From positions 321,192 to 385,191 of the forward strand of contig NMRA01000327.1 in assembly GCA_002633005.1 (NCBI GenBank): DNA of 64,000 nucleotides, read 5' to 3'. Below are positions 9,928 through 62,770 of this stretch, piece after piece. The DNA is from Phoronis australis. Its lineage: Eukaryota; Animalia; Phoronida. Made by a program: the position numbers and the translations under genes. The notes under the pieces were generated by a model, which made no database searches, was not told the origin of the DNA, and saw only the letters and a program-made list of their open reading frames with translations. Every line of letters begins with the position of its first letter. Within the stretch, counting starts at the first letter, position 1.

Positions 9928-10038
9928 GTCAGTATTCGGTTGACCTACAAGCATATAATGTGATGATCCAACTCCACTTCATTTGTAAACTTATGGCTAC
10001 CTGCTGTACAGAACAACAAATAATTAAAAAAGGGGTTA

Positions 10039-25638: not shown

Positions 25639-25648
25639 ATGTCATTTA
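25639..25648 (+). CDS. Rel: Rel/NF-kB family transcription factor, coding exon 1 (MSF)
   Basis: ATG TCA TTT A|gtgagt consensus donor; 72-bp GT-AG intron; phase 1 matches the next exon; in-frame TAA at 25630 upstream. Confidence 0.7.
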
Positions 25649-25720
25649 GTGAGTGGGCTGACCCTGCTCCAGTATTTCTGATTTTGGGATAAGTAACGTT
25701 GTTTTGATTGTGTTTTACAG

Positions 25721-25863
25721 TTAATCGTCCAAAACTTGAGATTGTTGAGGAACCCTGTGCTGCTGGACATCGCTTCAGATACAGCAGTGAGAAGAGTACA
25801 CACGCTGGTATCCTGTATGGGGAAAGAAGTAGAAAGAATGAACCATCTTACCCAACTATTAAG
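25721..25863 (+). CDS. Rel: Rel/NF-kB exon 2 (RHD DNA-recognition loop)
   Basis: ttacag| ... AAG|gtgtga. NRPKLEIVEEPCAAGHRFRYSSEKSTHAGILYGERSRKNEPSYPTIK aligns with RHD PYVEIIEQP..RFRYxCE...PTIK. Confidence 0.93.
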
Positions 25864-26158
25864 GTGTGATATAGTTATATGTCTTGTAAAATAGTAAAAC
25901 TAGTAAAATTAAAATGACGAGCGTCGGTACTAAAATATATTAAAATATCCCTACGTATCGAGCAGTGCGCTCTTTCTCAAGGGTGTGCTACAGACATATA
26001 TGTTTTGTGAATTTGATGAAGGTTAACTTTATAGAAAGCTCGAATAAATGAGACTCTACCATGATTTTTGTGTGTCGTTTTGTCACTATTAATTAATAAT
26101 ATGATTTTATAAATAAAGATTCACTTTTAAGTGTCAGTTTATATTGTGAATTAGTTAA

Positions 26159-27898
26159 AGGAGAATGCCACCCGATTTAATTAGTGTTTTTTGCCGTCTT
26201 AATCGGTCTATATCCACATCGCCTCGCATACGGTCAACCTTACCTTGCCAAGAAGTGTCGCGTTAACCTGTGAGGAAGGTGAGAAACGACGCTAGCGACG
26301 TCAGTGGTTCATATGCAGAGTGAATGCCGCTATGTTGCGGTGCATCGTCCCCGCTTGTCCGAACTAAGCAGGTGCGAGGAAAGCGGGTATATCGTTTTTT
26401 TTACTTCCTCGAGAGTCCGAAATGCTTAGGAAGTGGCTCATGGTAGTAAAGAATGAAATGTACGCTGTAAATAGCAAGTATGAGGCCGTCAAACATCTCC
26501 GTGTCTGTGGCCTGCAGACGTCGAAAGTGCCTGATGAATGCCGGCTTACCAAATAACTCCATACGTTCCGTTGTCTGAGCTTGTTCACGGCGCCTCTCTA
26601 GTATTTCTTCATCACTGTATTCCTGTTCGAATTGATAGCCTGTAAAACTTAACGATCCACCTGCGAAGTCAGTACTGAGCCCTAGTTCGTCGTCGGGATT
26701 GTGAGTTGCCATGTTGGCGTTTATTACTGAGCGTTCTGTTTCAAAATGAATTATTCTCACCCTAACCAATACTTATATAAAACTGAAACAAAATCAGTCT
26801 CAGATGTAATTTGAAATGCCTTTGGAATGTTCATGAGTGCAAATGATTTGAGAAGCCAGCAATGAATAAATCACTGCGTTGCCGGCTTTAGGTGCAATAA
26901 AACTAATTGACGGGACACCGTGCCTGAGCTCATGCTAATTTAGTGTTTGCTGGCAGAAACTGTTGTGAAACAGCTCGATTTCCATCCCACGGCCTGGTGT
27001 TAGGGGAATCTTTATTTACATAATTTACATTACTCAAATAATGATTGTCTATGCACAACTTCTGCCCTGACGGTGCTGTGGTCATAGCGGAACCTGAATT
27101 CGCGGCCCCCGACGAGTAAGTAGATTTGCAGTTTCGTGGCTAACTCACCAACATAATCACGTGCACATTACTTTGGCTCACAAGTATAGTATTTTCTTGA
27201 CTGGAAGTTTAGCTACCACTGAACTTTGGCTGGTTTATGTTCGTGATGTCTGATCAGTTTCCGAGCCACTGGCCGGGATAACGCCAGTCAATCCGGCCGG
27301 CCGCGACGGGTCTGATCGGACTCAGCTTCCAAGTCACTGGCCAGGATAACGATCAATGTCAGTCCGGCCGCGACGGGCCTGATCGGGCTCCGAGCCCCTG
27401 GCCAGGATAACAAGCGTTTTGTGTGTTTAGAACTCAAAAAATCACAAGTCTAAACAACACAGATCTAGGTTCTCCTGTCTGTATCACACGGAAAATACTT
27501 CGAAATTATCTCCGAACAGACCCCCAATGAAACTCCTTCTACGGACATTGGCCTGCCGAACTTTGTAGGCTACGGTGTGTCCAAATACCAATATATCCGT
27601 AAGAGCGAAATAAAACAACACGTTTTTGTAAGACCTCGGTGTATTTTTAAGGGTTTCACATCGAAGTTTGATGATTTGTTGGTGTTAAACGATGACTTCA
27701 AGTGATAAGCTGACACCAGTAACCCGTGTTGTTAACTGCTGAACAGACTGTGTGTGAAACCGATGACGTCATTGGATAATTTCAACACCTCTGTCTGCCG
27801 TCAGGTGTCAGGTAACACAACCGTGCGTGTCGTTATGGAGTAGAACTACTCAATCTAATTTGATAGAAATTAGGTTGTTTTTTGGGTGGCATGCTCCT
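26159..27898. mobile_element. Kolobok-like non-autonomous DNA transposon, copy A
   Basis: TTAA TSDs (26155-26158, 27899-27902); TIR aggagaatgccaccc / gggtggcatgctcct (14 of 15 match). Confidence 0.85.
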
Positions 27899-28286
27899 TT
27901 AATATGCCAAAAGGAAGAGCTTACTACGGACTTATGTAACTTGAAATAAAGTCCGTTCCAGATCAAAATCTCCTGTTGCTAATACATATCCTTCAAGGTT
28001 TGCACAACTTTGCTGAACTTTCAAGTGCCAAGTATGGTCTCAACAGACTGCCAGTCCTTTGCAAACCCAGAAGTCACTTCTTTCTCATCAGAGTAAGGAA
28101 CAAGTTGAGATCAATTTTACATCAGTATGTGGTCTCAGTTAAAAATTATTCGATGGAACATGGGTTAATAGCCTCTTTCACAAGCCTTGTATTCTTTGAC
28201 ATGCCCCTAGTGTGTTTTTTTTAAATCTTGATGTTAAAGGGACGTTTCTCTTTACTCACCACCTAATACTGACATTGTCCACTTGA

Positions 28287-30169: not shown

Positions 30170-30930
30170 TCTGTGAGTGGGTTCACACATGTTGAGCGCA
30201 CATCCTCTCCTCACAGGTACACCCACTTGGATAAAGCGTAAGGGTATTGGGTGTGATGTTTCCATAATGAGCTGATTGTGAAGTCTTCTCAGAGGACCTT
30301 TCGGTGGCCGGATGCTGACTGGCCAAAGGGAAACTCTAGTCGTAGAATGCAAAGCCCTCGTTATATTTGCCCAGCTTTTCTGTTCTGTTCTGTTCTGTTG
30401 TGCAGAGCACAATAATGTGGTGTTCAAGCAGCTTGATGTCAGGTGCATAAAGCTTCAGTGGCACAGCTATCACAGCCTGGCTGGCGACTAAATCTGCTTG
30501 GTTATTCAAAACATGCCGGCATGGCCATAGGGATATAGCTCCAGAAAACATGTTGGAGTAGGCAGACTTCCTGTAAAATGAGCCAGTTGGATGGGAGCAG
30601 ACCAGAGGAGATTCTAGTCAGCACAGCCTTCGAGTCTGTGGTCAAGATGATCATCGTCGTATCAGGGTGCAGCTCAGGGAGGAGGAGGAGGGTTTGTTGG
30701 ACTGTCTCGAACCTCATGCCTGTACAGTAGACCTCATGGTAGCTACATCCTTCTGCAAGTGTTAGATCATTCTGGCGAATCGGGTATCCCCAGCAAGCTC
30801 TGTTGGTATCCTGACAGAAGGAGCCGTCAGTGGCCACTATCAAGGCATCATCCCTATCTATCTTCCAGTGTAAGTCTTGGGCGTCTATTCTGGATGCCTT
30901 GGCAACAACGCCGACTGTCAACCAGAATTT
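30170..30930 (-). pseudogene. Decayed RNase H domain of a non-LTR retrotransposon
   Basis: LIVATDGSF (first catalytic Asp), IILTTDSKAVL, VFWSYIP and, after a frameshift, NNQADLVA. Confidence 0.75.
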
Positions 30931-31035
30931 CTCCTGTTCAGCCTCCCACATTGTAAGGGAAAGGAATACTAGGATGCTTAGTTGATGGAAGATGCACATC
31001 TGATTGCTGATAGTTACAATGACTCTCAGTGGTCT

Positions 31036-32134
31036 TATCACTCTGTGCGTGTAAGCGCAGAGTACTGTACAGTTGTTCCTGGGTTTTCTTCAATTTTATT
31101 CTTATTTTTATTCTTCTTCTTATTCTTCTTCCGACCAACTTAATAACTCCAAAATGGATTCAGGTATCTTCTTTAAATTCTGCATGTGATTTTAAGCAGT
31201 ACATAAATTTTGATTCGTTAAATAATCACAATCCATATTGCACCGGAAGAGGTCACTTGGTGCAAATGTCATGTAATTTTCAAAATGCTACTCCTTCATT
31301 TTTAAAGCTATTCTTTTCAAACTCAGTGCACAGGTATAAGTCAAGAAGGCAATTTAAAAAAATACTTTTCTAAGTAATTGGGTCATCCAATCAGGTGAAA
31401 TAGGTCAAAGGTCATTAGGTGCAAACTAAAATTTTGAGCTAGACACTTCAAATTGACAGGTCTGATTGGCACAGGTAATTCAATTTGGAATCCAAAGTTT
31501 CAGGTCATTTAGTGCAAACATGAAGTCATTAGGTGCATTTTTCTTCTGAAAATTTGACCTTTTCAATCAGCAAGTATTCTGATGTGTCAACCGTTAGACA
31601 ACATTTTTCAAGAATTCTTTTCAATTTCAGCACACTGGTGTAAGTCAACATGCCAATTGAATATCCTAGTTTACTTCGCAATAGGCCTAACCAATCAGAA
31701 AAAAATAGGTCAAAGGTCATTGAGTGCAAACTAAAATTTTGAGCTATAGACTTCAAAATTACATGTCTGTTTATTAAGTGCGATTCAGTTTGAATTCTAA
31801 ATTTTCAGGTCATTTGGTGCACCCATGGGGTCATTAGGTGCACTTTTCTTCTGAAAGTTTGACCAATTCAGTCATCTTATATTCTGAAGTGCTTAAAGTA
31901 AAACATCTGTGATTTTTAGCATTAACCACACTTTTAATCGAGTTAACAATTACTCCCTCATCGGGGCTCATAATGCACCGGAAGAGGTCAATTAGTGGAA
32001 AGGTCATCAAAAATTAATATGTAATTGCTCCTACAATTTTAAAGAATTCCTTTTCATATTGGTAAACGGGTTGCTGTCAGTAACTTCCCATAATAATTCC
32101 AGTAATACGCATGCGCAGAGTCCGTTATTGTCAC
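31036..32134 (+). mobile_element. Helentron/DINE-1-like family A, third copy
   Basis: Same 5' hairpin, microsatellite, body and 3' end (gcgcagagtccgttattgtcac) as 21357-22597, with an internal deletion. Confidence 0.8.
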
Positions 32135-34067: not shown

Positions 34068-34222
34068 GTTCACACCAATGGTTATCAAGGTTACATTATC
34101 GTGAATGCCAGTTTAGTGTGCAAAAATGAACCTCATTATGTGCACCCGCATGAACTGACTGGGCAAAACTGTTCCAATGGTTACTTTTATCTAATGGAAT
34201 CTGTCAACCAATCAGTGGAAAT
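34068..34222 (+). CDS. Rel: Rel/NF-kB exon 3
   Basis: ttgcag|GTT ... AT|gtgagt. VHTNGYQGYIIVNASLVCKNEPHYVHPHELTGQNCSNGYF resembles RelA NGYTG..[21 protein letters not shown]. Confidence 0.93.
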
Positions 34223-38094: not shown

Positions 38095-38660
38095 TTTTCT
38101 AAAATGTAGCAACATGTTTCAGCAGTAAAACGTTCATCATTGTCAAGCTTTATTCAGAGAATGGATGCCAAGATGGCTACAAGTACCATACACAAAAAAA
38201 TACAAAACACGTAAAAATACCTGAACAGTGTTGGCTAGCAATTAGCAAACAACAACTCAGTATAACAGTGTCAACAACTCATGGCAAACCTGTGCATGGA
38301 GTGAGGGCATTTCTGAAGACCGAATGTGAATTGCTTCACACAGTTTCAAGCGTAGCGATTAGTATAACTGCCAATAATCATAAAGCTGTGTTCTCCAGCG
38401 ACCTCTGTACAAGCAGCATTGTTTTCCAAGTGTCTAAAGATTTGTGAATTCTTATTACTAACTACGAAGTGTTCCTTAATCCTTGTAGTCAAACGGCGAG
38501 TTGTCTCACCAATGTTAGTTGCTTGACAACAACTACAGTCAAATTTATACACTACATGGGATTTTAGAGCAAAAAGAATCTTATCTTTAACACCAAGTAA
38601 ACTTGCAATCTTGCACGACTTATATGCAAGCTGAACATTCATTTTTTTCATTTTCCTCTT
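38095..38660 (-). mobile_element. Penelope-like element 3' fragment (GIY-YIG endonuclease), decayed
   Basis: KDK...KSHVVYKFDCSCCQATNIGETTRRLTTRIKEH...SQIFRHL is the VVY...YIGET.R.L..R..EH signature. Confidence 0.85.
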
Positions 38661-38689
38661 TCTCTGAACCGTTTTATCAGGTTTTATGA

Positions 38690-39173
38690 AATTGCTATTA
38701 AAATGATGACATGTTCCTGTTTTCGGATGGGTTCAACATGTGTTGGGCCATCTAGTGGCCATTTTTCTATTTTTAGTATGTTTTTGGCAACCGCCCCTCT
38801 ATCAGTCAAACCACTACCACTCTAAGGATGATTGTGAAAAATAGCATATAGGTTCGTAGTGTGAGGAGGACGGTTATAGGTGATTTTCTGACGAGTTCAA
38901 CTACTGGCACCTCCTTGTAGCAGTTATTTTTTGCACCCGTAGCCTTCTTGTGACAATTTCATTTTTTCCATTTCCTCAGTTTCTCAGAAGTTCCTTGATG
39001 GATTTGTGTGAAATTTGGTAAATAGCTTTGATGACATATACCAGTTTTCGGATGGATTTGACGTATTTTGCGCCATCTAGTGGCCATTTTTATGTTACAA
39101 ATAAATACCCCTAGAAGCACACCGTTTGCGGTGCATTCGTGGATGCATTTCAATGCTCTACCCTGCTCTTGTT
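38690..39173 (+). mobile_element. Helentron/DINE-1-like family B, 3' fragment
   Basis: gcgccatctagtggcca modules and the family 3' end gtggatgcatttcaatgctct...ctcttgtt. Confidence 0.7.
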
Positions 39174-39385: not shown

Positions 39386-39477
39386 TAAATTTAAGGATGT
39401 TAGTGTGCAGCGAACCAAAAAAAATGAAATCTGGGAGAAGCTCCGACAGAGGGTGTCACTGTGTGATCCATATAGCT
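39386..39477 (+). CDS. Rel: Rel/NF-kB exon 4
   Basis: tttctag|T ... T|gtaagt; phases fit both neighbours. KFKDVSVQRTKKNEIWEKLRQRVSLCDPYS aligns with [30 protein letters not shown]. Confidence 0.88.
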
Positions 39478-45972: not shown

Positions 45973-46098
45973 TGGGACTTCCAGACAAAAAATGTATCGA
46001 CATGGGGTGCTGCAGACTATGTTTTGAGCTGTGGATTTTTAGTGGTGTGGATCCAGAGGTTTGCGATGTAAAGGTCTCAAGGCCTATGTATGATGAGC
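45973..46098 (+). CDS. Rel: Rel/NF-kB exon 5 (end of the RHD N-terminal subdomain)
   Basis: ttgcag|TG ... C|gtaagt. IDMGCCRLCFELW...VSRPMYDE(R) aligns with YDLNAVRLCFQV...LSHPIFDNR. Confidence 0.92.
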
Positions 46099-47098
46099 GT
46101 AAGTGGAGCTTATAACATCATGCGTACTATTTCTGAAATAGCATCCACCACTAGGAAACACTCTAAAGACGTTTCCAAAAACTGCTCAGTATTCCCTTTG
46201 AAAATGTTAATAAATTAAGACCACATACCACTTAAAGGGTTTTGTGGTATTGACACTTTGAGTGAGATTACTAGAAAAATAGACACTGTGATGAGATGGG
46301 AGTGATTGTTAAAGCAAGATTGAGTTAGCACTGCTTGAAGGGTATTGTTGTAATATCTCTCTGAGTGAAATTACTGGGAAAATAGGTACCAGGGTGAGGT
46401 GAGACCGGCTGTTAAAGCAAGATTGGGTCAATGCTTAAAACATTTTATGTGTTGGCCATGGTCTCGAGCAAGAAAACATCATTTGGCTGTCTGGAAATCA
46501 GTTTGAGGTACAGAAAAGTTGAGTCGAGTCTTGCATCATTTTGCAGAAGTCGGGTTTATGGGATGCTTTAAATAATAGCCTCCATATTTTGCAGCTTCAC
46601 AAATTTACATGATGCTCTCCCTCATTCAAATTTCACTGCATTCTTTGAGAGATTTAAAATTGCTGTGATAAGCGGTGCCAGTGCTATCAGGTCACAATGT
46701 CACATTGTGTTGCTCGAGCAGGTTACACAATATAAGTTGGGACATATCAACAAAGAAACAGCAGTTTCAGTGCATATTATTACTATTGTAGCTAACCAAT
46801 TTTTGACGTTCGGACAATAGAAAAGTTCAATTTTCAATTGCAGATTTAGTTTTTATATGCTCACATATACCGGGACTTGTAATTTTTCTCTTTTAAGAGG
46901 ATTTTCCTCTTTGTTGATTTCAATTTCCTCCTATTTAATTTCCAGTTTCTTCTTTTCTCATCTCTTTTTCATTATTGGACTTGTTCATGCCAAACATTTC
47001 TTATAGATAAATTTTGCAAAACAAAATATATTTCTATCACTTAAGTCTATTTGTAGAACCATCCGTCACCTGAAAAGTTATCTGCATTTTCCGCTTTT

Positions 47099-50000
47099 TT
47101 ATGTGCCCACATATTTATATGTGGACGCATTATGCCGTCATCTCTGTCCGTCCGTCCGTCGTCCGCTGCTCTATCGCCAAAACCCTTTGACTTATGTTCA
47201 TGAAATTTGGCACACATGTTCCATTCATGAATGGGACGGCATGAGCGAACTTTCGTTCGAATCCGACTACCGGTGTGCCCCCTAGTGGCAATTTTAGTTT
47301 TTTACGCCTTGTATCTTCAAAAGTCCTGAATGGATTTTCATGAAATTTAGTATGTAGGCACCTCTTAGTGAGATGACGCTTTCCTCCCGTTTTCGGATGG
47401 ATTCGATGTAGTTTGCGCCACCTAGTGGCCATTTTTACTGTTTTCAAGTCTGTTTTTTGCGTCCACCCCTCTATCAACCAAACCGCTCAAAGGATGATTG
47501 TGAAAATTGGCATGTATGTGCTTACTATGAAGAGGACGTTTGACGTTGATTTTCCGACGGTTTCGACTACTGTGGCGCCTCCTTTGGCAGTTTTGTTTTT
47601 TTGCGCCTATGGCTGTATCTCCTAAACCATTCGCAGGATCTTTACGAAAGTTAGTAAGTACATTTATATGATGTTCACAACGGAAGACGACGACTTTTGA
47701 ACAGATTCGAATACCGGTGTGCCCCCTAGTGGCAATTTTATTTTTTTACATTTACCTTTGTATCTTCAAAAGTCCTTAACGGATTTTCATATGTAGGCAC
47801 CTATTAGTGAGGTGATGCTATCCTCCCGTTTTCGGATGGATTCGCCGTAGTTTGCGCCACCTAGTGGCCATTTTTACAGTTTTCGAGTCTGTTTTTTGCG
47901 TCCACCCCTCTATCAACCAAACCGCTCAAAGGATGATTGTGAAAATTGGCATGTATGTGCTTACTGTAAAGAGGACGGTTGACGAGGATTTTCCGATGAT
48001 TTCAACTACTGTGGCGCCTCCTAGTAGCAGTTTTGTTTTTGTTGCGCCTATGGCTGTATCTCCTAAACCGTTAGCAGGATCTTTACTTAATTTAGCAAGT
48101 GTAATTATATGATGTTGACTATAGATGGCAACGACTTTCGGACAGATCTGACTACTGTTGTGCCCCCTAGTGGTAATTTTATTTTTTTATGTTTAACTCG
48201 GTATCTTCAAAGGTTCTCAACAGATTTTCATAAAATTTTAAATATAGGCATCTATTGGTATGAGGACGCTATCTTCTTGTGTTTGGATGGAATCGAGGTA
48301 TTTTGCACCACTTAGTGGCCATTTTTGCTGTTTTCAAATCTTGTTTTTGGTGGCTACCCCTGTACCAGCCAAATCATTTGAAAACTGGCATATATGTTCT
48401 CAGTGTGAAGACGACCTTTGATGATGGTGACTGACTACTGCGGCGCCTCCTAGTGGTAGTTTTGTTTTGCGCTCATAGTTGTATCTCTTAAACCCACTGC
48501 AGGATCTTTACTAAATTTAGTAAGTGTATTTATATGAAAATAACAACACACGACAACGACTTTCAGGGGGATCCAATGGACACTGTGCCCACTAGTGGCA
48601 ATTTCATTTTATTCTGTTTTCATTTGTTTCTCTGAAGTTCCTTGACAGATTTTTATGAAATATGGCATGTTCCTGTTTTTGGATGGATAGTATGTTTTTG
48701 CGCCATCTAGTGGCCATTTTTATGATACAAATAAATAACCCTAAAAGCACACCATTTTCAATGCATCCGTGGGCGCATTTCAACGCTCTGCGTTGCTCTT
48801 GTTGTTTTTGATTATTACATGCCCTGCATATGTGTGTGGATATTGCCGTCATCTCTGTTTGGGCTTTTGGCATCCTCTTATGTATCTGCTAAAACCTTTG
48901 AGGCATCTTAATGAGATTTGGTTTATCTGTTCCTTCCAAACTGATAAATTTCAGACCAGTCCAACTACCACTGACTGTGCCCATTTGTGTCAGTTTTAGT
49001 TTTTTACGTTAATTTTGCTTCTGTATCTTTGGAGTACATTGGCGGATTTTTGCTTAAAATCACCAATTCTATATACCCACATTTTTATATGTGGTCGCAT
49101 ATTGCCGTCATCTCTGTACCGGCGTCCGGCATCCTGTATCTGCAGCGGTATCTCCTAAACCCCTAACAGGATCTTGATGAGATTTGGCAGATGTGTTCCT
49201 ATCAAGCTGGCAACTGATGACGATAAATTTCGGACCTCTTTGACTACGGGTGTGTCCCCTAGTGGCAATTTTATTTTTTTACGGTCACCTGTGTATCTTT
49301 GGAGGTCCTCAACGTATTTTCACATAATTTGGAATATAAGCATCTATTAGTGAGATGACACTATTCTCTCGTTTTCGGACAGATTGGACATAGTTTGCGC
49401 TTCCTAGTGGTCATTTGTACTGTTTTCGAGTCTTTTTTGATGTCCACCCCTCTAAGGATGATTGTGAAAATTGGCAGTTTTGTTCTTTCTATGAAAAGTA
49501 TGACTGATGATGATTTTCTGACGACTTGGAGTACTGTGGCGCCTCCTACTGGCAGTTTTGTTTTTTTTGCGCCCATGGCTGTATCTCCTAAACCGTTTGC
49601 AGGATCTTTATTAAATTTAGCAATTGTATTTATATGATGTTGACAACGGACGACCACAACTTTTTCAGGGATGGGACTGCTGGTGCACCCCCTAGTGGGA
49701 ATTTTAGTTTTTTACGTTTACCTCTGTATCTTTAAAGGTCCTCAACACATTTTCATAAAATTTGGGATATGGGTGTCTATTAGTGAGATGTCGCTATCCT
49801 TCTGTTTTCGGATGAATTTGAGGTATTTTGCACCACCTAGTGGCCATTTTTACTGTTTTCGAGTCTGATTTTTGGCGTCCATCCCTCTGTCAACCAAACC
49901 GCTTTAAGGATGATTGTGAAAGTTGGCATGTATGTTATTACTTTGAAGAGGATGGCTGATGATGATTTTCCGATGCCTTCGACTACTGTGGCACCTCCAA

Positions 50001-51045
50001 GTGGCAGTTTTGTTTTTTTTTTTGCGTCCATGGCTGTATCTCCTAAACCGTTTGCAGGATCTTTGCTAAATTTAGCAAGTGCATTTATATGATGTTGACA
50101 ACGGACGATGACGATGACTCTCACACAGATTTTTTCACCAGTGTGCCCCCGTAGTAGCAATTATAGTTTTTTACATTTATCCCTGTATATTCAATGGTCC
50201 TCAACAGAGTTTCATAAAATTTGGAATATAGGCATCTATTGGCAAAGTGGCGCTATCCTACCATTTTCAGATAGATTCGAGGTATTTTGTGCCACCTAAT
50301 GTCCATTTTTACTGTTTTTGAGTCTGTTTTTTGGCATTCACCCGTCTATCAAACAAAGCATTCTAAGGATGACTTTGAAAATTAGCATATATATTCTCAG
50401 TGTGAACTAGAGGACAGTTGAGGATGATGATGTCGACTACTGTGGCGCCTCCTAGTTGTGGTTTTGTTTTGTTTTGAGCCCATAGCTGTATCTCCTAAAC
50501 CCACTGCCGAATCTTTATTGAATTTAAAAAGTGTATTTATTTTATAGGAAGCTAACAATAGATGACGACTTTCAGGTGGACGCTATGCCCCCTAGTGACA
50601 GTTTCATTTTTTCTGTTTTATTCTATATCTCTGAAGTTCTTTGTCAGATTTTTATGAAATTAAGTAAATAGCTTTCCATTGAAGAAGCAATGACATGTTC
50701 CATTTGAAGATAGATTGGACGTTTTGCAACATCTAGTGGCCATTTTTATGATACAAATAAACAACTCTAGAAGCACACCGTTTGCAGTGCATTCGTGGGC
50801 GCATTTCAACGCTCTGCTATGTTTGCTTCTGTATTTTAAAGTTCAACTGGATGTCTCAAAATTTCCATGCTTTTTTCCTTGATAGATTTTCATTAAGTTT
50901 GGTGAATGATTTTGTGTTTGAGAGGCAACAACACCCTTGCATTTTCAGACAGATTTAACGTATTATGCGCCATCTGACATTTTTGCGAGACTAGTGAAAT
51001 TCTCTAAAAACATGCCGCATTTCAATGCTCTGCATTGCTCTTGTT
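47099..51045 (+). mobile_element. Cluster of Helentron/DINE-1-like family B elements (47099-48803 complete; 49070-50823; fragments) with internal tandem repeats of about 440 bp
   Basis: subTIR pair atg(c/t)gcccac / gtgggcgcat, (gtcc)n, 3' hairpin caacgc-tct-gcgttg (48781-48795), terminal cttgtt; subunits of about 145 bp each with a GCC.CCTAGTGG motif. Confidence 0.85.
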
Positions 51046-51386: not shown

Positions 51387-51485
51387 GTAACAATCCCAAA
51401 CTACAAATTCAAGAGTTCAGCCATTATTCGGGATCTGTCGAAGGGGGTCTTCGCGTTATGATGTTCACCAGTGAAGTGAGAAAAG
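51387..51485 (+). CDS. Rel: Rel/NF-kB exon 6 (start of the IPT/dimerisation domain)
   Basis: actcag|GT ... G|gtaaac. KLQIQEFSHYSGSVEGGLRVMMFTSEVRK aligns with [29 protein letters not shown]. Confidence 0.9.
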
Positions 51486-51844: not shown

Positions 51845-51930
51845 ACGACTTGCAGATAATAATTGCTCAGCTAGCTGATGGTGTGGAAGTATGGCATGCA
51901 GTTGTGGCAGAGTTTAATGTCCATAAACAG
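51845..51930 (+). CDS. Rel: Rel/NF-kB exon 7
   Basis: ttttag|AC ... CAG|gtacag. DDLQIIIAQLADGVEVWHAVVAEFNVHKQ aligns with EDIEVYF...WEA....DVHRQ. Confidence 0.9.
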
Positions 51931-53471: not shown

Positions 53472-53688
53472 TGCGGCATTTCGTTTTGTATGCCTCCCTA
53501 CACTGGACCCAATCAGAACTCTCAATCAGAAATTCCTGTCATCATTCAACTAAAAAGACCCACAGATGGAGCCACCAGTGACCCAGTCGACTTTGTTTAT
53601 GTATCATCTGACATTTTTGTGGTGGAAAACAAGCGGAAACGGAAACGTGTTGATAACACCTTAATGCTTGAGAGGGCACCGTCTCAGG
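53472..53688 (+). CDS. Rel: Rel/NF-kB exon 8 (end of IPT domain and nuclear localisation signal)
   Basis: atgcag|TGC ... G|gtttgt. CGISFCMPPY...IQLKRPTDGATSDPVDFVY...ENKRKRKR matches AIVFRTPPY...QLRRPSD..SEP.EF.Y...KRKR. Confidence 0.93.
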
Positions 53689-53987: not shown

Positions 53988-54342
53988 CAGGGCTTTGAAA
54001 AAACTGACAGTTTGTAATTGCTTGAGGCGAGGCTCTTCGCGTTGGCAGGTCACCGCGTGTCATTTTATGCCCTGAGCATGATCTCCGGCTCTACGCGTTG
54101 GCAGGTCATGGCGTGTCATTTCATGCCCTGAGCAGAATCTCAGGCTCTACGTGTTGGCAGGTCATGGCGTGTCATTTTATGCCCTGAGCAGAATCTCAGG
54201 CTCTACGCGTTGGCAGGTCACGACATGTCATTTTATGCACTGAGCATGATCTCAGGCTCTACGTGTTGGCAGGTCATAGCATGTCATTTCAAGCACTGAG
54301 CATCTCAAGGGACAACAAACTGTCAGTTCTTTGCAAACCCAG
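53988..54342. mobile_element. Small TIR element enclosing five tandem 56-bp units
   Basis: Imperfect TIR cagggctttgaaaaaactgacagtttgt / acaaactgtcagttctttgcaaacccag; gttggcaggtca recurs at 54041, 54097, 54153, 54209 and 54265. Confidence 0.75.
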
Positions 54343-55104: not shown

Positions 55105-55307
55105 GTGCAACGTTCACCGTTCCTGATGAGACCATTGAACAGTTCAATATTCCTGATGTAATGGCAACTCCAGCAGAAGGGAATATGGCTCTGTTAGCTG
55201 AAGGTGGTGTGGAAGGCCCTGTGATTAGTTTACCTGATGAGTTGCCTGGCAACTTCAATAGCACGGAATTTGATTCATTTGTGAAATTTTTAGAAGGAGG
55301 AACTTAG
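55105..55307 (+). CDS. Rel: Rel/NF-kB exon 9 (acidic putative transactivation tail and stop)
   Basis: taacag|GT in phase 1; acidic ATFTVPDETIEQF...EFDSFVKFLEGGT*. Total CDS 1131 nt = 376 aa. Confidence 0.78.
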
Positions 55308-56899
55308 AAGGACATATTGCAGAAAGTGAGAGCTTGTATTCTACGAGGTCCTCGTATGCCATTAGAGCAAGGAAGCAAATTCCTCTTGATTCCTGCTCCA
55401 TTTTTAGACTAGATCCTGGATGGTTATATCAAGGTAACACTGTTGTGTAGTACTAACTTTGCAACTGTGGCTGTTAAATAGTATGATGCAAACATTTTTT
55501 GAAAACTGTAAATTCCATTATTTGAAACGTCCATTGTCTTCCCTTATGAATTATAGATATAGCACAATCGTTTCTCCAACAAAGACATTGTGGACATTTT
55601 GTATTGTATCATATTCAATGAGTCACTGTTTTTAAAGTGCCATGTTTGATGGGCATCCAACCTGTCAAAGTTGTTCATCTACGTTATGCTCATTTTTGTA
55701 CAATATTGGCGAACATTTTCTGTCGCAATGACTTTCACATGGTTCTGAATGACATGAATTTAGTTTGTCACTAAACTTTGAAAACCTATGCATATTTAAT
55801 CAGCTTGTTAGTAAATTTTAGGATGCTTCATATGTGAAAGTATTGGTGATTGTATTAAGGACTGTGGCAGCTGTTTTTGGGCGTGGCTGAACAGGATAGG
55901 AGGGCACTTCCTGTTAATTCTCTGCTAATTACCTGCCATTTTTAATTAATTATTACAGCCACAGGCTGAACCTCATATCAACTCAAAAGGCTGTGTTTAA
56001 GTTTATCTGACATGTGATAGCAACCTTTTTTGTTGTAAATAAAATGGCATGAATTTGACAATTTTGGCAAATAATTGCTGTTTTATGATTTATTCAAGCT
56101 GTATGGAGACGGGTGGCTTGACTCCTGCTCACAGAAATGCATGCATTCAGGTAGTCACGTGGCTCTTGTAGCAGACAATTATCTCTGTGTTGAGGATTTG
56201 CTTTCTGCAGGGAGCTTTATTGATAAGTGCCACCTAGAAAATATCGAGTCACCCCTTTCTGCGATCGAAATTGAATGTTATTTGATTGCTAATATGGTAC
56301 ATGTATTTCACTCTTTTCCTAACATCTTTATGTCTTGTTATTTAACGTTTTTGTCTTTAAAATATATATGTGATTGTGACTGCTGAAAGTTTGGCTAAGA
56401 TATATTATTACCCAGGTACATTCGCTTTATTTGAGGAGTAGATGAAGGTCTTGTAGCCAAAGTCTTCAGTGTCGAGCTAAACATCAAGTTTATTGTGTCG
56501 AATTCCTAATGTGAGCAATTCCTTTTGCGCAAGAATGGGCTGCTGTCCTGGGGGGGTTTTGGCTTTAGTTTTGAAGGGATGGAAAGTTATGGTATCAACC
56601 GTGTAGAGAGCAGAATCGAAAAAAGGGTTCTCAAATTGTAGGGAGCTTCCGTGAAAAAGTCACAATTTCATGGGGTTTTGTTAAAAAAATCACCCTATTG
56701 TAGGAATGAATTAAAAAACTAATTCTGGAATCTTGAACTGCTGAATTTGTATAGTCCATTCTTTGAAATCAGCCCATACCTAAAAAAGACATTGTATTAA
56801 TCGACCTTTCGGTTTACTATCACTTAAAACCATTCTCAAAACAAATGTTCATTATACTCCAGTCAGCTAACACAGGTCGAGAGCAGCCTGCACAGGTAC

Positions 56900-58700
56900 A
56901 CATCAAAATGCAGTGTGTGGGGAGACCAGAAATCAAGTAGTGAAGCTCAGGAGAACCAATGTTTCTATTCAGATATTGAGCTTTTTGACGCCTGTCCAAT
57001 CGACTAACTCAGCTAAAAAGTCTTGTATTAACCTCTCTATTACCAGTGATTTGAGTTGTATTCTCTACACTGAAGTTGTGCCGCCTATTGGTAATTTGGA
57101 CCACTATGCTCTACATACTAGTTTGAGTGATACCGCGCTCGGTACCGATTAGCCTAAAATTTACAAAACCGTGTTGAAATAAAATCGTGCTTACTTCTGA
57201 TTTAGATGAGGTTAACTGGGATGCAGTATTCGATTCCAGCGACATTGACCACATTGAGGATTTGTTTAGTTCAAGTTTCTTAACGTTATTAAAAGTGGCA
57301 TCCCTTATGAAGTAAAATTAATAAACCAAAAATTAACCTTGGTTTAATGAATTAAAAAAGGAAGCGTCGACTGTATGAAGCTTTAAATTTTCCAGTAACC
57401 CCATCCTGTATCAAAGATATAAAGACCAAATTTCAAGGGCGAAAGGTGGTCGTTGCAAAATCTTAATTCAAGCTGCTAGTAAAAAACCAAGAATTCTAAG
57501 GAATACTGGAAACTCATTAAGAATATTCTTGGTCATTCCACTCAAGATACATTTACTTGTCTTAAACAGAATAATATTGGTGATTATACCTCTTGAAAAT
57601 TAGATAAAGTTATTTTCTTAATTATTTCACGAATAAAAGCCATTTGAGACAGCTTTGTTCCGTGACTTTCCAAATATGGATAGTAGGTGTCATCTTCCAA
57701 TAAAGTATAAATGCAGGTGAGGTCAAAAGACTTCTTGAAAATATTGATACGTCGAAGAGTGAATTGTCAACAGATATAACGAGAACATGTTCAAATTACT
57801 TGCAAATCTACATTTTTAATAAGATTTTCCATTGATGTACTTTTCCATCAAGGTGAAAACAAGGATTGATGATACCTGTGCATAATAAAGATTCATCAAC
57901 TGAAGTGTCCAATTATCGCCCCATTACTGTACTCAAAGGTTCTTGAAAAAATATATTCCCGTATATATGACGACTTGATAACTCATAATTTACTGCCAGA
58001 CAAAAGCACCACATCTCAATTCATCGAAATAGTTCACGGTCTCCACTCAGAATTTCTTAAGGGGAATGATGGTTGTGCTGTTTTTCTTGATCTTGCATCT
58101 GCGTTTGATATGGTGCAACATGATCTTTTGTTATTAAAACTTCGTAAGTATGGAATAAATGGGACAGTGTATTGCTTACTTCAGTCGTGTGGGTGGTTTT
58201 GTTTCTGATGAATAGCCAATGCTGGTGTACCGCGAGGCAGTGTCTTGGGGTCGTTGCTTTTTCTACTATTTATTGATGATCTGCCTGATGGACTGTATTC
58301 CAAGAGATTTGATATGCTGACGATGCATCTATTTTTTTTCTTATCCAAAAGACAAACTCGAAGATGTAAGTGGAGAAGGGATCTTTATTTACTGTTTGAT
58401 AGGACAACAAAATGGCGTATGAAGTTCAAAGCGTCCAAAAGTTACGATATAACGTTTTTGCAAAAATCTCTACAGAATACCCACAGACTCCCACGACAGT
58501 ATTTGAAGGACTGTTATTACTCAAAGTGTGTCGGTCAAGCATTTGGGTGTTATGCTTGATCTTCCACTCACTATGAATCATCATTGTGTTCATCTAATTA
58601 AAAAAGACAAAAACTTCTCAACTCATTCAGAACTCTCTTTCGAAATATATTTCCAGTTTATATACCAGTCGTGAGGTAGTACGCACGCAACAATGTCGTA
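56900..58700 (+). pseudogene. Decayed CR1/L2-type LINE ORF2 (end of endonuclease plus reverse transcriptase)
   Basis: Ordered motifs PPIGNLDH, NWD, PWFN, YRPI, STTSQ..AVFLDLASAFDMVQH.LLL.KL, GVPRGSVLG.LLFLLFIDDLP, WRMKF, KHLGV, broken by stops and frameshifts. Confidence 0.9.
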
Positions 58701-59234
58701 TCAAGAACAGCTGCATCGTCATCTTTGAAAACCATAGGTTTGGTTCATGATGGGTTCGGATGAGTATTTTTGTTTTAGTTTATTAACGTACACGACGAGT
58801 TAGGATTCCTTGATAAAACCGTAGACTGAGTAGAGTTCATTGATTGCTTCGAAGGGAAAATTCACCGCCGCGAGTTAATAGTGAATTAGCCGATCGCTCA
58901 TGAAGGGCGGACCGCTTATTGGGTTCGTTAAAATAATGCTCCGATCCATCACTAGTGTTATCTCGATCTTTGGTTGGATGTGGTCGATAGTTTAACAAAT
59001 AAACAACGAATGTGAAGTTCATGAAGTTGTGGCCGGACTAAACGCTACTGATTTCACATAAAATTGGCACGTCAGTGGTACTTTTTGATATTTTTAAAAA
59101 TTCACGGTTGAGATCAAAACATTATCAAACAAAGCAATTAGTAATGGTAGTTACGCTATGGAAAAAGCGTTTGAGACTTCCTTTTCCAGTAGTGGACGAT
59201 AAGAATAAAAACATCATGGTCTTTAAAATGCCGA

Positions 59235-59240
59235 TTTATT
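59235..59240 (-). terminator. Polyadenylation signal of the Spaetzle-like gene
   Basis: AATAAA on the minus strand about 73 nt after the stop codon. Confidence 0.6.
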
Positions 59241-59312
59241 GAATAATTGAGTTATGCATAAATATAACCAGACACAGACACGCAGAGACAAAGTATTCAC
59301 ACGCACTTCATT

Positions 59313-59541
59313 TTAATTGCCGCCATATTTGATGAACAGCTTGAGGGGGTTACCGCAGCAACAGTTGCTGGGGAACTTGAACCATTTAAGGCGGAGCTTG
59401 TACGAGACTTTGTACTGCCAGGTGTCATAGTCGTAGAACTTGTGCTCGACCCAGACGTACAGTGGGCTGTGTGTGAACACCTGTTGGCACTTGGCCAGCC
59501 AGTGGAAATAGAACCAGAAATAGCCATTACAGACTTTGTTG
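59313..59541 (-). CDS. Spaetzle-like cystine-knot secreted protein, exon 5 (last)
   Basis: tttcag|C acceptor. NKVCNG...KCQQVFTHSPL...KWFKFPSNCCCG resembles Spaetzle C.Q.Y....L...SFKIPSCCKC. Confidence 0.85.
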
Positions 59542-60072
59542 CTGAAACAGAGAGCAGGACAATTAGTGACGAGCGCTGACCACAAGAGGCAAGATTCGCG
59601 ACGTGCATTGACAACGACGCGAGCTTAACAACGAGCGCTGACCACGAGACGCGAGCTTAACAATACAATGAGCGCTGACCATTAAAAGTCAGCTTACACA
59701 AAACTAATGGCATTAAACTCTAGGTCTGCAACAAGACGGCGTATATCTCTCTTTATATTGAACTTCAATCTTGTCGCAGGGAGCAGTGGAAAACGACTGC
59801 AAACATTTACACATTGAATGATAGAATCTTAAACACGCTGTTACGCGTAATTAGTAAAAAAACAATAACTTTGTGTAAACGAATTTCAGCTTCTCGGCTG
59901 ACTGAACAGTAAAGACTGTGCAATTTGGTGAAGCTTGATCCAATCAGCATAATGTATACTTTATATTCTCCTCCAATCAGACGTGCACTAATTATAATAT
60001 CTGTGAACGTCGCAAGCAGATTTTTAAATAAAGCTGATTACAGAAAAAGTTCATCGTGTGACGTTGACTTAC

Positions 60073-60204
60073 GCGCAATAGCAGACGTGTATCCACTGTT
60101 GAAACTTGCGGGTTTGGTAAACTTGCACCCATCCATTCCTAGAGAAGGGGACAAGCACTTTGGCTACACGCACCCACCGACAGGCTTCAGTACAGCCTTG
60201 ACCA
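60073..60204 (-). CDS. Spaetzle-like protein exon 4
   Basis: ctttcag|T ... GC|gtaagt. CTEACRWVRVAKVLVPFSRNGWVQVYQTRKFQQWIHVCYC aligns with Spz CRSIRKLVYP....DTWQLIVNNDEYKQAIQIEEC. Confidence 0.85.
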
Positions 60205-60428
60205 CTGAAAGAGAAAGTTTATTGGGCTCTTGTGATGATGAGAAACTTCAACTTACAATAAGGGCTGCAACCAATAAAAAGTGTTGTAAAATTACTTACA
60301 TTGCGTAAAAGTACAGTATAAGTTATTTGAATAAAATGGCTGGAACAGATGAATAAAACTAGGATGAATATTCCCTTAGTATTTAGCGCTTCAAAAAGTC
60401 TGACATGGTTATTGTATGCTACACTTAC

Positions 60429-60563
60429 TATGTACCATCTGGGATCGCTTTAGCAACAGTTGACAAGCGTCTAAGTTTCTTCTCTTGGGGGGGCTTGCCG
60501 TCTTCTTCCCAGACACTGTCTAAAAACTCCTTCTCTTTGTCACTTTGACCCGTTTTTTCAGCA
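60429..60563 (-). CDS. Spaetzle-like protein exon 3 (pro-domain and basic cleavage site)
   Basis: ttgcag|T ... TA|gtaagt; AEKTGQSDKEKEFLDSVWEEDGKPPQEKKLRRLSTVAKAIPDGT; phases fit both neighbours. Confidence 0.82.
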
Positions 60564-60600
60564 CTGCAACAGAAATGAGCTCATTGTAAACATTACAAAT

Positions 60601-60676
60601 TATCGTCATCGTTGTTGTCTTCATCATCGTCATCGTTATCATCTTCATCATCATCACCACCATCATCATCATCCGT

Positions 60677-60713
<37 letters not shown>

Positions 60714-60720
60714 GATCATC
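60601..60720. repeat. (CAT)n microsatellite in intron 2 of the Spaetzle-like gene
   Basis: Run of catcatcat with degenerate flanks. Confidence 0.95.
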
Positions 60721-61055
60721 AACTTCTACAGTTTCAATACAGGTATGTTAGTTCTGCAATTGTCGAGGTTATACTTAGCCTGTTCTAATCATTTTAAGTC
60801 TAGAAATGAATTTTGAAGCTATCAGTGACACATTTAAACCTAGATGCCGTTTATAAAATGAGAAACTCTCTGAAGTCTCTCGCAGAGCTAATTAGATCAA
60901 GCCAATATCAGCGGAACGGTTAGCATGAAACGGTTTTGGTCTCTGACACCCTGTAATGATTGACGCTCATCCCCGAGATATTTTTGATTCCCATAGCAGT
61001 AACAATAAAGTTATAACGAATAAATATATTGTGTGACTTGATCCTGTACGTGTAC

Positions 61056-61234
61056 CTTAAAGTGGCCGTCTCTGAGTATCCGCAGCAGCCATAAGGTTCG
61101 TTGTCTGCTTCATTCATGTGACTTTTACAGTTGCAGATGTCACCCCCGTATGACGACGAGCCCCCTGAATTTGGACCGCCATTCGGCGGAAGGAAGGCAG
61201 AAACAACTGCAACAAGGCCAAGAAGGCACAATGC
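61056..61234 (-). CDS. Spaetzle-like protein exon 2 (signal peptide and Cys-containing pro-region)
   Basis: cttcag|GCA ... AG|gtacac; ALCLLGLVAVVSA-FLPPNGG...CNCK...GCCG. Confidence 0.85.
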
Positions 61235-62685
61235 CTGAAGAAAAAATGTCGGGAATTAGTCACAATTGGACAAGACGATATAAACTAAAAGAATAGAAAT
61301 AGATTAAAGACGCTAGGCCACACCTTTCGTTGTATTCCGGTGTCATGGTACACTGAAGACAAATACGGATATGGCGAAGTTGTGACCGTAAAGCTAAACT
61401 CTCAGCATTAATCTCCTGGCAACCCGACATAGAATCAAAACTACGTCATGATCCGTGGTGCAGTTTACGGTCTTTCAATTCAACCTGGCAACTACCAGTC
61501 TGAAGGTGGGCCAATACTGTTTCGACACAAATAAATGTAAAGGTACGCAAAACACTTGGACCAGGTAAAATACCGCTTCTGGTTGTTTGACTCCGACATG
61601 AAGAACATGGCAGAAATCATTGATATCGTTTTAATTTTTTAGTTATTCCGAAACTTGTAGACACAAGCCAAAGCTTGGAAGAAATAATGTCAATCTTAAA
61701 AACATTTTTGGATTTTGTTAGAAGTCCCCGAAACACCTAAGTTGTTTGAATGATACCTGCTTTTACCTTGAACCCTTGAGATTGTTATTCATAAATAAAG
61801 CTATGTTTCAAAAACTGTTCTGAATGAAAGGGATTTCTTTGAGTTGGCAAACGTTCAAAACATTATAAGTTGATAGTGAATATGGGATTAAATTTGAATC
61901 AAAATCTCTTTATTTCATGCAAAACAATTTAGTCTTTGCGTTTCTCAATGACACCTAGTCACGGAATAGAAAAAAGATTTTAAATTCCGAAACTTATTTG
62001 AATTTTAAACCGTCCAAGCGTAAAGAAGACAACTCCAATTTTACTCCTACGTACGAAGATTGGTAATGCATCACGCAGCATAACGTAAGGACATGTTGAA
62101 AAGTCAACGATTAAACTGATCAGCTGATGCAGATAAAGTTACGTGCTAATTCAATACAAACAAATGAAGTATTTTAAAGTTATGTAAGATCTCATCGACA
62201 AGTCTGAGAATTTTGCCAGACTTAAACTCCGTAACAGTACAATATTTGAAAGTAGTAAGTTGATAGACTTGTTACCAATCTGCCATTAATTGGATCACTG
62301 AACATGTCATTTCAGTAAAAAGTTGGAACAAAGGTACATTGATAGCAATTCAACGGACAAACAATAACAGGGCCAAAATTTCATTTGGTAAAAATATCGA
62401 AGATGAAATCTCAAAAACTCTCTTACGGTTTTCTAAATTATTATTTCGTTTCCGTTTTACTGAACTTGTCATTTTATCATGAAAATCATAACAGTTCTAT
62501 TTTATATATCTTTTTATGCAAAAGCGGAAAGAATACTTAACAAAGTTTGGAGTACACTGCATACAGCACATTTTTTTCCAAGTTTCGTCATATAAATCCC
62601 ACCACTCACTTCTAAGATATGACGTTCCGAAGTTTGCCATATTCGCACCTTCTTCTATGATTCTATGTAAACTTAAAGGACTTAC

Positions 62686-62697
62686 CAAAATCTTCAT
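62686..62697 (-). CDS. Spaetzle-like protein exon 1 (MKIL)
   Basis: ATG AAG ATT TTG|gtaagt consensus donor, phase 0; creates the signal peptide MKILALCLLGLVAVVSA. Confidence 0.8.
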
Positions 62698-62762
62698 ATT
62701 TGCAATCGGCGTCTGGTCACTGTACCAGTCAGAAGCGTGTGGACAAAACTATAAACTCTGCC

Positions 62763-62770
62763 CTTTTATA
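62763..62770 (-). promoter_or_regulatory. TATA box of the Spaetzle-like gene
   Basis: TATAAAAG on the minus strand about 70 nt upstream of the ATG; predicted TSS near 62740. Confidence 0.65.

What the first reader, a model, noticed from the sequence alone, without database searches (positions are those of the whole stretch)
25639..62770. Candidate Toll-pathway gene pair: a Spaetzle-like ligand gene tail-to-tail with an atypical Rel/NF-kB gene
Seen: two intact multi-exon genes converge with their stops 4.0 kb apart (55307 and 59313), separated mostly by a dead LINE. One encodes a Rel homology domain protein, the other a secreted pre-pro cystine-knot protein. Known: in insects cleaved Spaetzle binds Toll and activates the Rel proteins Dorsal/Dif, and endogenous Toll ligands are poorly characterised outside arthropods. 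Inference: the possible input and output of one pathway are physically linked, and both are divergent, which could mark a lineage-specific Spaetzle-Toll-Rel module. I know of no described spz-Rel linkage, but a single adjacency can be chance, and I saw no canonical kB site in the Spaetzle-like promoter.
Basis: partly seen in the sequence, partly recalled or inferred. Interest (0 to 1): 0.8.

Follow-up and report, generated by a model that had tools for sequence, protein, structure and literature searches.

The report
Real genes, likely chance neighbours
An unusual NF-kB-type (Rel) gene and a gene for a predicted secreted Spaetzle-like protein sit tail to tail in an invertebrate genome and both are spliced and transcribed, but they are switched on in different samples, so their closeness is likely coincidence rather than a shared immune module.

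Summary
Both genes are real. RNA reads support all 4 introns of the Spaetzle-like gene (228 aa) and 5 of 8 introns of the Rel gene (375 aa). The stops are 4.0 kb apart, as stated. However, the Rel gene starts at 11490, not 25639, and sits head-to-head with mRpL14. A module is not supported. Spaetzle-like junction reads are 1609/0/0 in three RNA runs, while Rel gives 35/32/72 and follows mRpL14 (42/28/75). The only consensus kB site near a gene start lies in Rel's own first-exon region; the Spaetzle-like gene has none. Pecanex lies just upstream, and human PCNX3 and RELA share a locus, so Rel may sit in an old block. The Rel is closest to p65, lacks ankyrin repeats and has Ser for the redox Cys. 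The Spaetzle-like protein matches Pfam Spaetzle only weakly (16.7 bits, cut-off 27, half the domain), and its knot is 24% aromatic. This scan noted Spaetzle-like genes in mussel and oyster before (unchecked). No relative's genome was available, so conserved linkage is untested.

The parts
11490..11496 (+). Rel exon 1, coding part (ATG at 11490; the exon extends at least about 75 bases upstream of its 3' end)
   Evidence: RNA joint 11496 to 25721 in 3 of 3 runs; frame
11395..11405 (.). 11-bp near-palindromic kB site GGGAATTTCCC, matching the consensus on both strands, between the mRpL14 start and the end of Rel exon 1
   Evidence: whole-window count 4 against 2.2 expected, so not enriched overall; function untested
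25721..25863 (+). Rel exon 2, DNA recognition loop RFRYSSEK (Ser for the conserved Cys)
   Evidence: Pfam PF00554 36.9 bits; PDB alignment to p50; RNA joint at its 5' end
34068..34222 (+). Rel exon 3
   Evidence: PF00554 32.8 bits; best PDB hit p65 36.8 bits against p52 13.5; splice sites inferred
39386..39477 (+). Rel exon 4 (inferred)
   Evidence: GT-AG and frame only; no RNA laid here; no RHD match in Pfam
45973..46098 (+). Rel exon 5
   Evidence: loose read ends before 51387 match its 3' end (7 and 24 reads; sequence); 5' end inferred; no PDB hit
51387..51485 (+). Rel exon 6, start of the dimerisation domain, strongly diverged
   Evidence: RNA joint; no PDB or Pfam hit alone
51845..51930 (+). 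Rel exon 7
   Evidence: RNA joints on both sides; no PDB hit
53472..53688 (+). Rel exon 8, end of the dimerisation domain and basic nuclear signal KRKRKR
   Evidence: PF16179 28.5 bits; best PDB hit p65 29.7 bits; RNA joints
55105..55307 (+). Rel exon 9, acidic tail and stop; no ankyrin repeats
   Evidence: RNA joint
55308..56580 (+). Rel 3' UTR (AATAAA at 56038; read depth continues to about 56.6 kb)
57000..58650 (+). Broken LINE-type reverse transcriptase remnant (limits approximate), practically untranscribed
   Evidence: RVT_1 pieces below cut-off; stops and frame shifts; depth at most 0.14 in 57018-59202
59313..59541 (-). Spaetzle-like exon 5, second half of the cystine knot and stop; poly(A) signal 59235-59240, RNA ends 59221-59230
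   Evidence: PF16077 16.7 bits, E 0.011, cut-off 27; 278 junction reads in X1
60073..60204 (-). Spaetzle-like exon 4, first half of the cystine knot
   Evidence: RNA joints, 278 and 314 reads in X1; no family hit alone
60429..60563 (-). Spaetzle-like exon 3, acidic prodomain and basic site KKLRR (aa 92-96)
   Evidence: RNA joints, 314 and 595 reads
61056..61234 (-). Spaetzle-like exon 2, predicted signal peptide and four-Cys prodomain segment
   Evidence: RNA joints, 595 and 422 reads; hydropathy
62686..62728 (-). Spaetzle-like exon 1 (RNA start 62726-62728, ATG 62697)
62764..62770 (-). TATA box of the Spaetzle-like gene
6472..11152 (-). mRpL14 gene, head-to-head with Rel
   Evidence: PF00238 52.3 bits; joints 6841-9842, 9942-11114, 9942-10881 and read ends at 11152
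1302..3855 (+). 3' exons of a pecanex gene (stop at 3855)
   Evidence: PF05041 143.5 bits on the first of these exons; last exon read from translation, its identity recalled

Best explanation
Two separately regulated genes lie tail to tail, likely by chance: a low-level, broadly transcribed, divergent Rel-class transcription factor gene and a sample-restricted gene for a predicted secreted Spaetzle-like cystine-knot protein. Rel side. Shown: nine exons from 11490, head-to-head with mRpL14 across less than 350 bases, read counts rising and falling with mRpL14, a Rel homology domain closest to p65, a basic nuclear signal, an 80-aa acidic tail and no ankyrin repeats. Inferred: it shares a two-way promoter with mRpL14; it binds kB sites as a dimer, because the RFRY and Glu of the recognition loop are kept; it resists thiol oxidation, because Ser replaces the loop Cys; it receives NF-kB feedback through the kB site at 11395; and it sits in an old pecanex-Rel neighbourhood. 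Spaetzle-like side. Shown: TATA box, five exons, strong expression in one of three samples, no consensus kB site. Inferred: it is secreted, cut at KKLRR by a furin-type convertase (as Drosophila DNT1/2 are, unlike Spz itself), and releases a basic 132-aa knot with nine cysteines. Its abundance (about 19 times mRpL14 per junction) and 24% aromatic content fit a tissue-specific secreted product acting locally, either as a matrix or gel component or as a growth-factor-type ligand (about even odds), rather than an infection-triggered Toll ligand wired to its neighbour.
For: Junction reads Spaetzle-like 1609/0/0, Rel 35/32/72, mRpL14 42/28/75 in runs X1/X2/X3 (summed). Depth at most 0.14 between 57018 and 59202, so no overlap or read-through. 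kB patterns: 0 hits of 4 patterns in the Spaetzle-like gene and 1.27 kb upstream; a two-strand match in the 345-base mRpL14-Rel interval. PMC3514665 (passages) names head-to-head orientation, short spacing and correlated expression as marks of co-regulated conserved pairs: Rel-mRpL14 fits these, Rel-Spaetzle-like does not. Pecanex ends 7.6 kb before the Rel start, and a table row of PMC7320185 places PCNX3, SIPA1, MAP3K11 and RELA in one human locus. Furin cleavage of DNT1/2 but not Spz: PMC5412559 passages.
Against: Only three runs from one study, tissues unknown, 18-19% of each read, no immune challenge known. A ligand and its responding factor need not be co-expressed, and Rel activity is set after translation (established knowledge). 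Under assumed gene numbers the adjacency has a prior of only 0.05-1%. The Spaetzle family is still the nearest lead: Pfam E 0.011, and the three best Atlas hits are Spaetzle clusters at 0.81-0.82, a score the tool calls a lead only. The pecanex-Rel link rests on two species, with a different intervening gene and orientation (human order recalled). Rel and mRpL14 co-variation rests on three points. The kB pattern is not enriched window-wide (4 against 2.2; 21 of 100 shuffles reach 4).
Confidence: 0.75

Rival explanations
1. A functional Spaetzle-Toll-Rel module kept linked by selection: the secreted knot is cleaved, binds a Toll receptor and activates the neighbouring divergent Rel.
For: Adjacency is unlikely for a pair named in advance. 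Both proteins are divergent: no relative found by exon searches (the tools call such blanks weak). Spaetzle is the nearest family lead. An endogenous ligand for oyster TLRs was raised as a possibility in PMC3788107 (passage).
Against: Opposite expression in three runs. Tail-to-tail, no shared promoter, no kB site at the ligand gene. Papers report direct binding of microbial patterns by mollusc TLRs and no demonstrated role for the clam Spaetzle homologue (PMC7773633; PMC7056985).
Confidence: 0.08
2. The Spaetzle-like protein is a true Toll or neurotrophin-type ligand of this animal, but its place beside Rel is unrelated to that role. This overlaps with the best explanation on position and differs only in committing to a signalling role.
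For: Signal peptide, prodomain, basic site, Cys spacing with Gln two after the fourth knot Cys, intron inside the knot. PMC2586362 names six cysteines and a glutamine as knot essentials. PMC8296651 notes a characteristic intron within the knot.
Against: Pfam score below cut-off. High abundance and 24% W/Y/F. No receptor data.
Confidence: 0.4
3. The secreted protein is not of the Spaetzle lineage but another cystine-knot type (neurotrophin, coagulogen-like, IL-17-like) or a different disulfide fold.
For: Atlas rows 5 and 6 carry NGF (57% of members) and IL17 (17%) families. No PDB sequence hit to Spaetzle for either knot exon. The position just before the fifth knot Cys is Asn (register recalled), and three spare cysteines are present.
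Against: Spaetzle is the only Pfam family hit by exon 5 at E up to 10 and holds the top three Atlas ranks.
Confidence: 0.2

Closest known systems
Rel-class NF-kB factors (p65/RelA, c-Rel; Dorsal-type in invertebrates)
   Same: Rel homology domain, nuclear signal after it, non-ankyrin tail; exons 3 and 8 match p65 best.
   Different: Loop RFRYSSEK against the consensus RFRYXCEG (PMC2751831); a His aligned to that of p50, and exon 2 scores p50 slightly higher (28.7 against 25.0 bits); Thr for the Ser of p65's RRPS motif; exons 5-7 too diverged for any PDB hit; tail only 80 aa.
Nematostella NF-kB Ser67 allele and insect Relish
   Same: Ser at position 6 of the recognition loop; in PMC2751831 (abstract and passages) this gives resistance to thiol-reactive compounds.
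   Different: Those are NF-kB-class proteins (class recalled); this one is p65-like over most of its length and also replaces the loop Gly by Lys.
Spaetzle / Drosophila neurotrophin family (PF16077; Spz, DNT1/Spz2, DNT2/Spz5, Spz3/4/6)
   Same: Predicted signal peptide, prodomain, C-terminal Cys-rich domain with knot-like spacing, intron in the knot, extra cysteines as in Spz3/4/6, basic site as in DNT1/2.
   Different: Below the Pfam cut-off on the half tested; very aromatic; four-Cys prodomain segment; likely non-arthropod host; no Toll binding shown.
Mollusc Spaetzle-like genes
   Same: Spaetzle-like secreted proteins outside arthropods (PMC7773633; notes e1-8594228 and e1-9520954).
   Different: No shared short words with the scan's indexed findings; single copy in this window, not a pair or cluster.
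Human MAP3K11-PCNX3-SIPA1-RELA locus (11q13)
   Same: A pecanex gene within two genes of a Rel-class gene.
   Different: Intervening gene is mRpL14 here and SIPA1 in human, and relative orientation differs (human order recalled). Orthology not tested.

Membership tests
Rel-class NF-kB | RHD DNA-binding domain above the Pfam cut-off | tested here: met
   36.9 and 32.8 bits on exons 2 and 3 separately, cut-off 27
Rel-class NF-kB | RHD dimerisation domain | tested here: met
   exon 8 gives 28.5 bits, cut-off 28.3; exons 6 and 7 give no hit alone
Rel-class NF-kB | Basic nuclear signal right after the RHD | tested here: met
   KRKRKR at aa 290-295, aligned to p65's
Rel-class NF-kB | No ankyrin repeats in the C-terminus | tested here: met
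   80-aa acidic tail, stop and 3' UTR supported by RNA; no Pfam hit on exon 9
Rel-class NF-kB | Closer to p65/c-Rel than to p50/p52 | tested here: met
   exon 3: 36.8 against 13.5 bits; exon 8: 29.7 against 16.0; exon 2 leans to p50, 28.7 against 25.0; 3 of 6 exons searched gave hits; no tree built
Rel-class NF-kB | Recognition-loop consensus RFRYXCEG (typical, with known Ser exceptions) | tested here: not met
   RFRYSSEK; consensus and exceptions from PMC2751831
Rel-class NF-kB | Binds kB DNA, is held by IkB, activates transcription | not testable with these tools
   needs experiments
Spaetzle family (PF16077) | Signal peptide and prodomain before the knot | tested here: met
   hydrophobic aa 1-17 by hydropathy, acidic prodomain; no dedicated signal predictor run
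Spaetzle family (PF16077) | Score above the curated cut-off | tested here: inconclusive
   exon 5 alone 16.7 bits against 27, profile positions 48-94 of 96; exon 4 alone no hit; the spliced domain was not scored
Spaetzle family (PF16077) | Six knot cysteines and the conserved glutamine | tested here: inconclusive
   Cys 113, 117, 150, 152, 157, 171, 213, 214, 215 and Gln 173 fit the pattern; assignment of the six is by recalled register
Spaetzle family (PF16077) | Characteristic intron within the knot | tested here: inconclusive
   an intron lies between Cys152 and Cys157; its equivalence to the Drosophila position (PMC8296651) was not checked
Spaetzle family (PF16077) | Cystine-knot fold | tested here: inconclusive
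   exon 5 alone folded at pLDDT 50, four strands; best Z 2.5, unrelated
Spaetzle family (PF16077) | Cleaved form binds and activates a Toll receptor | not testable with these tools
   no genome held, so no Toll sequence of this species
Co-regulated conserved gene pair (Rel with Spaetzle-like) | Head-to-head orientation with short spacing | tested here: not met
   tail-to-tail, 4.0 kb between stops; criteria from PMC3514665
Co-regulated conserved gene pair (Rel with Spaetzle-like) | Correlated expression | tested here: not met
   1609/0/0 against 35/32/72 junction reads in 3 runs of one study
Co-regulated conserved gene pair (Rel with Spaetzle-like) | Linkage kept in related genomes | not testable with these tools
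   no eukaryote genomes; nothing found

The most novel reading that the evidence does not exclude
This lineage has built a private NF-kB channel. A redox-proof Rel with a p50-like reading head and a charge-reversed dimer face (Glu184 and Arg197 where p50 has Arg252 and Glu265, by recalled register) pairs only with itself and feeds back on its own promoter. The neighbouring convertase-cut Spaetzle-like knot, made in one tissue, is its Toll ligand, which would be the first Spaetzle-Toll-Rel axis outside arthropods.
Probability: 0.08. Interest if true: 0.75.

Novelty: new member of a known kind. Interest (0 to 1): 0.3.

Why it matters
The linkage itself probably means nothing. Two by-products are worth keeping. 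First, endogenous Toll ligands outside arthropods are an open question (PMC7773633 knew one clam homologue, with no function shown), and this is an RNA-supported, strongly sample-specific candidate that can be expressed and tested. Second, the Rel is a natural variant with Ser in the redox position and a heavily changed dimer face, useful for asking how NF-kB dimer choice evolves. Its position next to pecanex hints at a bilaterian pecanex-Rel neighbourhood that two paper searches did not show as described.

Tried and rejected
No whole genome is held, so paralogue counts and Toll genes could not be examined. Homologue searches with single exons found nothing: Spaetzle-like exon 5 (1 candidate, 0 passed), Rel exon 2 (2 candidates, 0 passed), metagenome contigs (281 and 204 pattern matches, 0 confirmed). 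The one hit of the 1.84-billion search, P0061, is a five-fold tandem repeat matching 21 residues and was rejected as spurious. PDB sequence searches: 3 of 6 Rel exons hit (none in 39, 40, 76) and 0 of 2 knot exons hit a relevant entry. The half-domain model was low in confidence and its fold search uninformative. No RNA holder was listed in the index; the runs came by species label. Run X4 gave only 3 short repeat matches and was left out of the counts. The mRpL14 tree (37 rows: the window, 28 named and 8 unnamed of 60 hits) put the window in no supported clade; best named hits are molluscs and annelids at 65-74% against at most 63% for arthropods, a tardigrade and deuterostomes. The host is therefore likely a lophotrochozoan, phylum unresolved. 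Rejected: start at 25639 as the main start; antisense overlap of the two transcripts; an ankyrin-bearing p105/Relish-type gene. A paper search for the dimer salt-bridge residues returned only noise. One review on kB recognition was not held. Supplements of PMC3514665, which may list pecanex or Rel pairs, could not be read. PMC12943528 and PMC8609888 mention Spaetzle only in references. No paper search was aimed specifically at spz-Rel linkage; the listings showed no such title.
Full report
1. Setting. The window is animal DNA (39% GC), and no whole genome is held. The mRpL14 gene in the window has its best named relatives in molluscs, annelids and a nemertean (65-74% identity), against at most 63% for arthropods, a tardigrade and deuterostomes. 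A tree of 37 rows placed it in no supported clade, including the small arthropod clade. The host is likely a lophotrochozoan; the phylum is unresolved.

2. Observation. Both genes exist. The minus-strand gene has five exons (62697 to 59313, 228 aa). All 4 introns are GT-AG and are bridged by 422, 595, 314 and 278 reads in run X1; the RNA starts at 62726-62728, about 40 bases after a TATA box at 62770, and ends at 59221-59230. The plus-strand gene has nine exons (11490 to 55307, 375 aa). The stops are 4006 bases apart. About 1.6 kb of that is a broken LINE-type remnant and about 0.75-1.3 kb is Rel 3' UTR; 57018-59202 is practically silent.

3. The Rel protein. Exons 2 and 3 each pass the Pfam cut-off for RHD_DNA_bind and exon 8 just passes RHD_dimer. 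Exons 3 and 8 match p65 far better than p50/p52; exon 2 leans slightly to p50 and carries a His aligned to p50's. After the nuclear signal KRKRKR (aa 290-295) come 80 acidic residues and no ankyrin repeats. It is a Rel-class factor by anatomy; orthology was not tested by a tree. It is atypical: the recognition loop reads RFRYSSEK against the consensus RFRYXCEG. PMC2751831 (abstract and passages) knew Ser here only in insect Relish and one Nematostella allele, and links it to resistance against thiol reagents. Exons 5-7 give no PDB hit. By a register I recall and could not confirm with a tool, the p50 interface residues listed in PMC6863704 (passages) are all replaced, with a possible Arg/Glu swap. 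This is a lead only.

4. The secreted protein. It has a hydrophobic N-terminus, an acidic prodomain with four cysteines, the basic site KKLRR (aa 92-96) and a basic C-terminal domain with nine cysteines; aa 109-228 are 24% Trp, Tyr and Phe. Exon 5 matches Pfam Spaetzle at 16.7 bits (E 0.011, cut-off 27, second half of the profile) and no other family; exon 4 matches nothing relevant. The three best Atlas clusters are Spaetzle at 0.81-0.82, a lead only, followed by NGF- and IL17-bearing clusters. The Cys and Gln pattern and an intron within the knot agree with family features named in PMC2586362 and PMC8296651 (passages), but the register is recalled. The basic site resembles the furin processing of DNT1/2, which Spz itself lacks (PMC5412559 passages). 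Folding half the domain was uninformative. It works like a Spaetzle/neurotrophin-type pre-pro-protein; membership is inconclusive.

5. Are they a module? In three RNA runs of one study (18-19% of each read, tissues unknown), junction reads are 1609/0/0 for the Spaetzle-like gene, 35/32/72 for Rel and 42/28/75 for mRpL14; per million records and joint, 31.5/0/0, 0.69/0.71/1.63 and 1.65/1.24/3.39. Rel is highest where its neighbour is silent and follows mRpL14, with which it lies head-to-head across under 350 bases. That interval holds a kB site matching on both strands (11395-11405); the Spaetzle-like gene and 1.27 kb upstream hold none of four patterns. Window-wide the pattern is not enriched, so the site is suggestive only by position. 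Pecanex ends at 3855, two genes from Rel, and a table row in PMC7320185 puts PCNX3 and RELA in one human locus; an unchecked scan note (e1-7514066) reports an old MLK-pecanex pair. So Rel's older neighbourhood may be the other side.

6. Against my reading. Three samples are few, and none is known to be immune-challenged. Ligand and responder can be made in different tissues. With assumed gene numbers the adjacency has a prior of 0.05-1%, though it was selected after the fact. Linkage in relatives, paralogue number and Toll binding are untested; look-ups for relatives found nothing, and these blanks are weak.

7. What is known. PMC7773633 (passage) states that outside arthropods a spaetzle homologue was described only in the clam Paphia, without a shown role in TLR signalling, and that mollusc TLRs bind microbial patterns directly. 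PMC7056985 (passages) found homologues only in panarthropods within its ecdysozoan sample. PMC3788107 (passages) leaves an endogenous ligand for oyster TLRs open. Unchecked notes of this scan report Spaetzle-like genes in mussel and oyster. Two searches for a pecanex-Rel synteny gave one irrelevant listing (not read) and one genetics paper. No search was aimed specifically at spz-Rel linkage.

8. Verdict. Observation partly confirmed, with a corrected Rel start. The module reading is weakened to about 8%. Best explanation (75%): two independently regulated genes that are neighbours by chance, each a divergent new member of a known kind. Interest 0.3, carried by the non-arthropod Spaetzle-like candidate, the unusual Rel and the pecanex-Rel lead.

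Noticed in passing
window 1302-3855 (+), 6472-11152 (-), 11490 onward (+): Order pecanex, mRpL14, Rel. Human PCNX3 and RELA lie in one locus, and scan note e1-7514066 reports an old MLK-pecanex pair; a possible ancient MLK-pecanex-Rel block.
   Followed up: partly
window 11152-11496: Likely two-way promoter of mRpL14 and Rel, under 350 bases, holding a kB site that matches on both strands at 11395-11405; read counts of the two genes move together in three runs.
   Followed up: partly
window 51387-51485: By recalled register, the five p50 dimer-interface residues named in PMC6863704 (R252, D254, Y267, L269, C270) are all changed here (E184, S186, M199, F201, T202), with Arg197 at the place of a Glu: a possible charge reversal. 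No tool alignment supports the register.
   Followed up: partly
window 9942-10881 and 9942-11114: mRpL14 uses two alternative upstream splice donors, giving different 5' exons.
   Followed up: no
window 60558-61056: Minor alternative joint at Spaetzle-like intron 2, 5 reads against 595.
   Followed up: no
window 21354-24183 and 31035-32134: Repeat with a unit of about 432 bases in Rel intron 1, copied in intron 2; its family is strongly transcribed on the + strand in run X3 (depth 251), with many mismatches, so probably from other copies.
   Followed up: no
window 47097-50817, 12100-18700, 44313-44682, 63306-63594: Arrays of diverged units of about 440-460 and 225-230 bases, with dispersed copies, fill much of the Rel introns.
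   Followed up: no
window 20502-20771 (-), 30502-31089 (-), 38346-38732 (-): Transposon-like fragments in Rel introns: an OTU-like piece (22.5 bits, cut-off 23.3), an RNase H-like piece and a GIY-YIG-like piece (the last two by recalled resemblance).
   Followed up: no
window 54030-54303 and 60602-60712: 56-base minisatellite in Rel intron 8 (reads show a one-unit length difference) and a TCA microsatellite in Spaetzle-like intron 2.
   Followed up: no
window 44684-45460: Assembly gap of about 760 N inside Rel intron 4; the frame closes without an exon there.
   Followed up: partly
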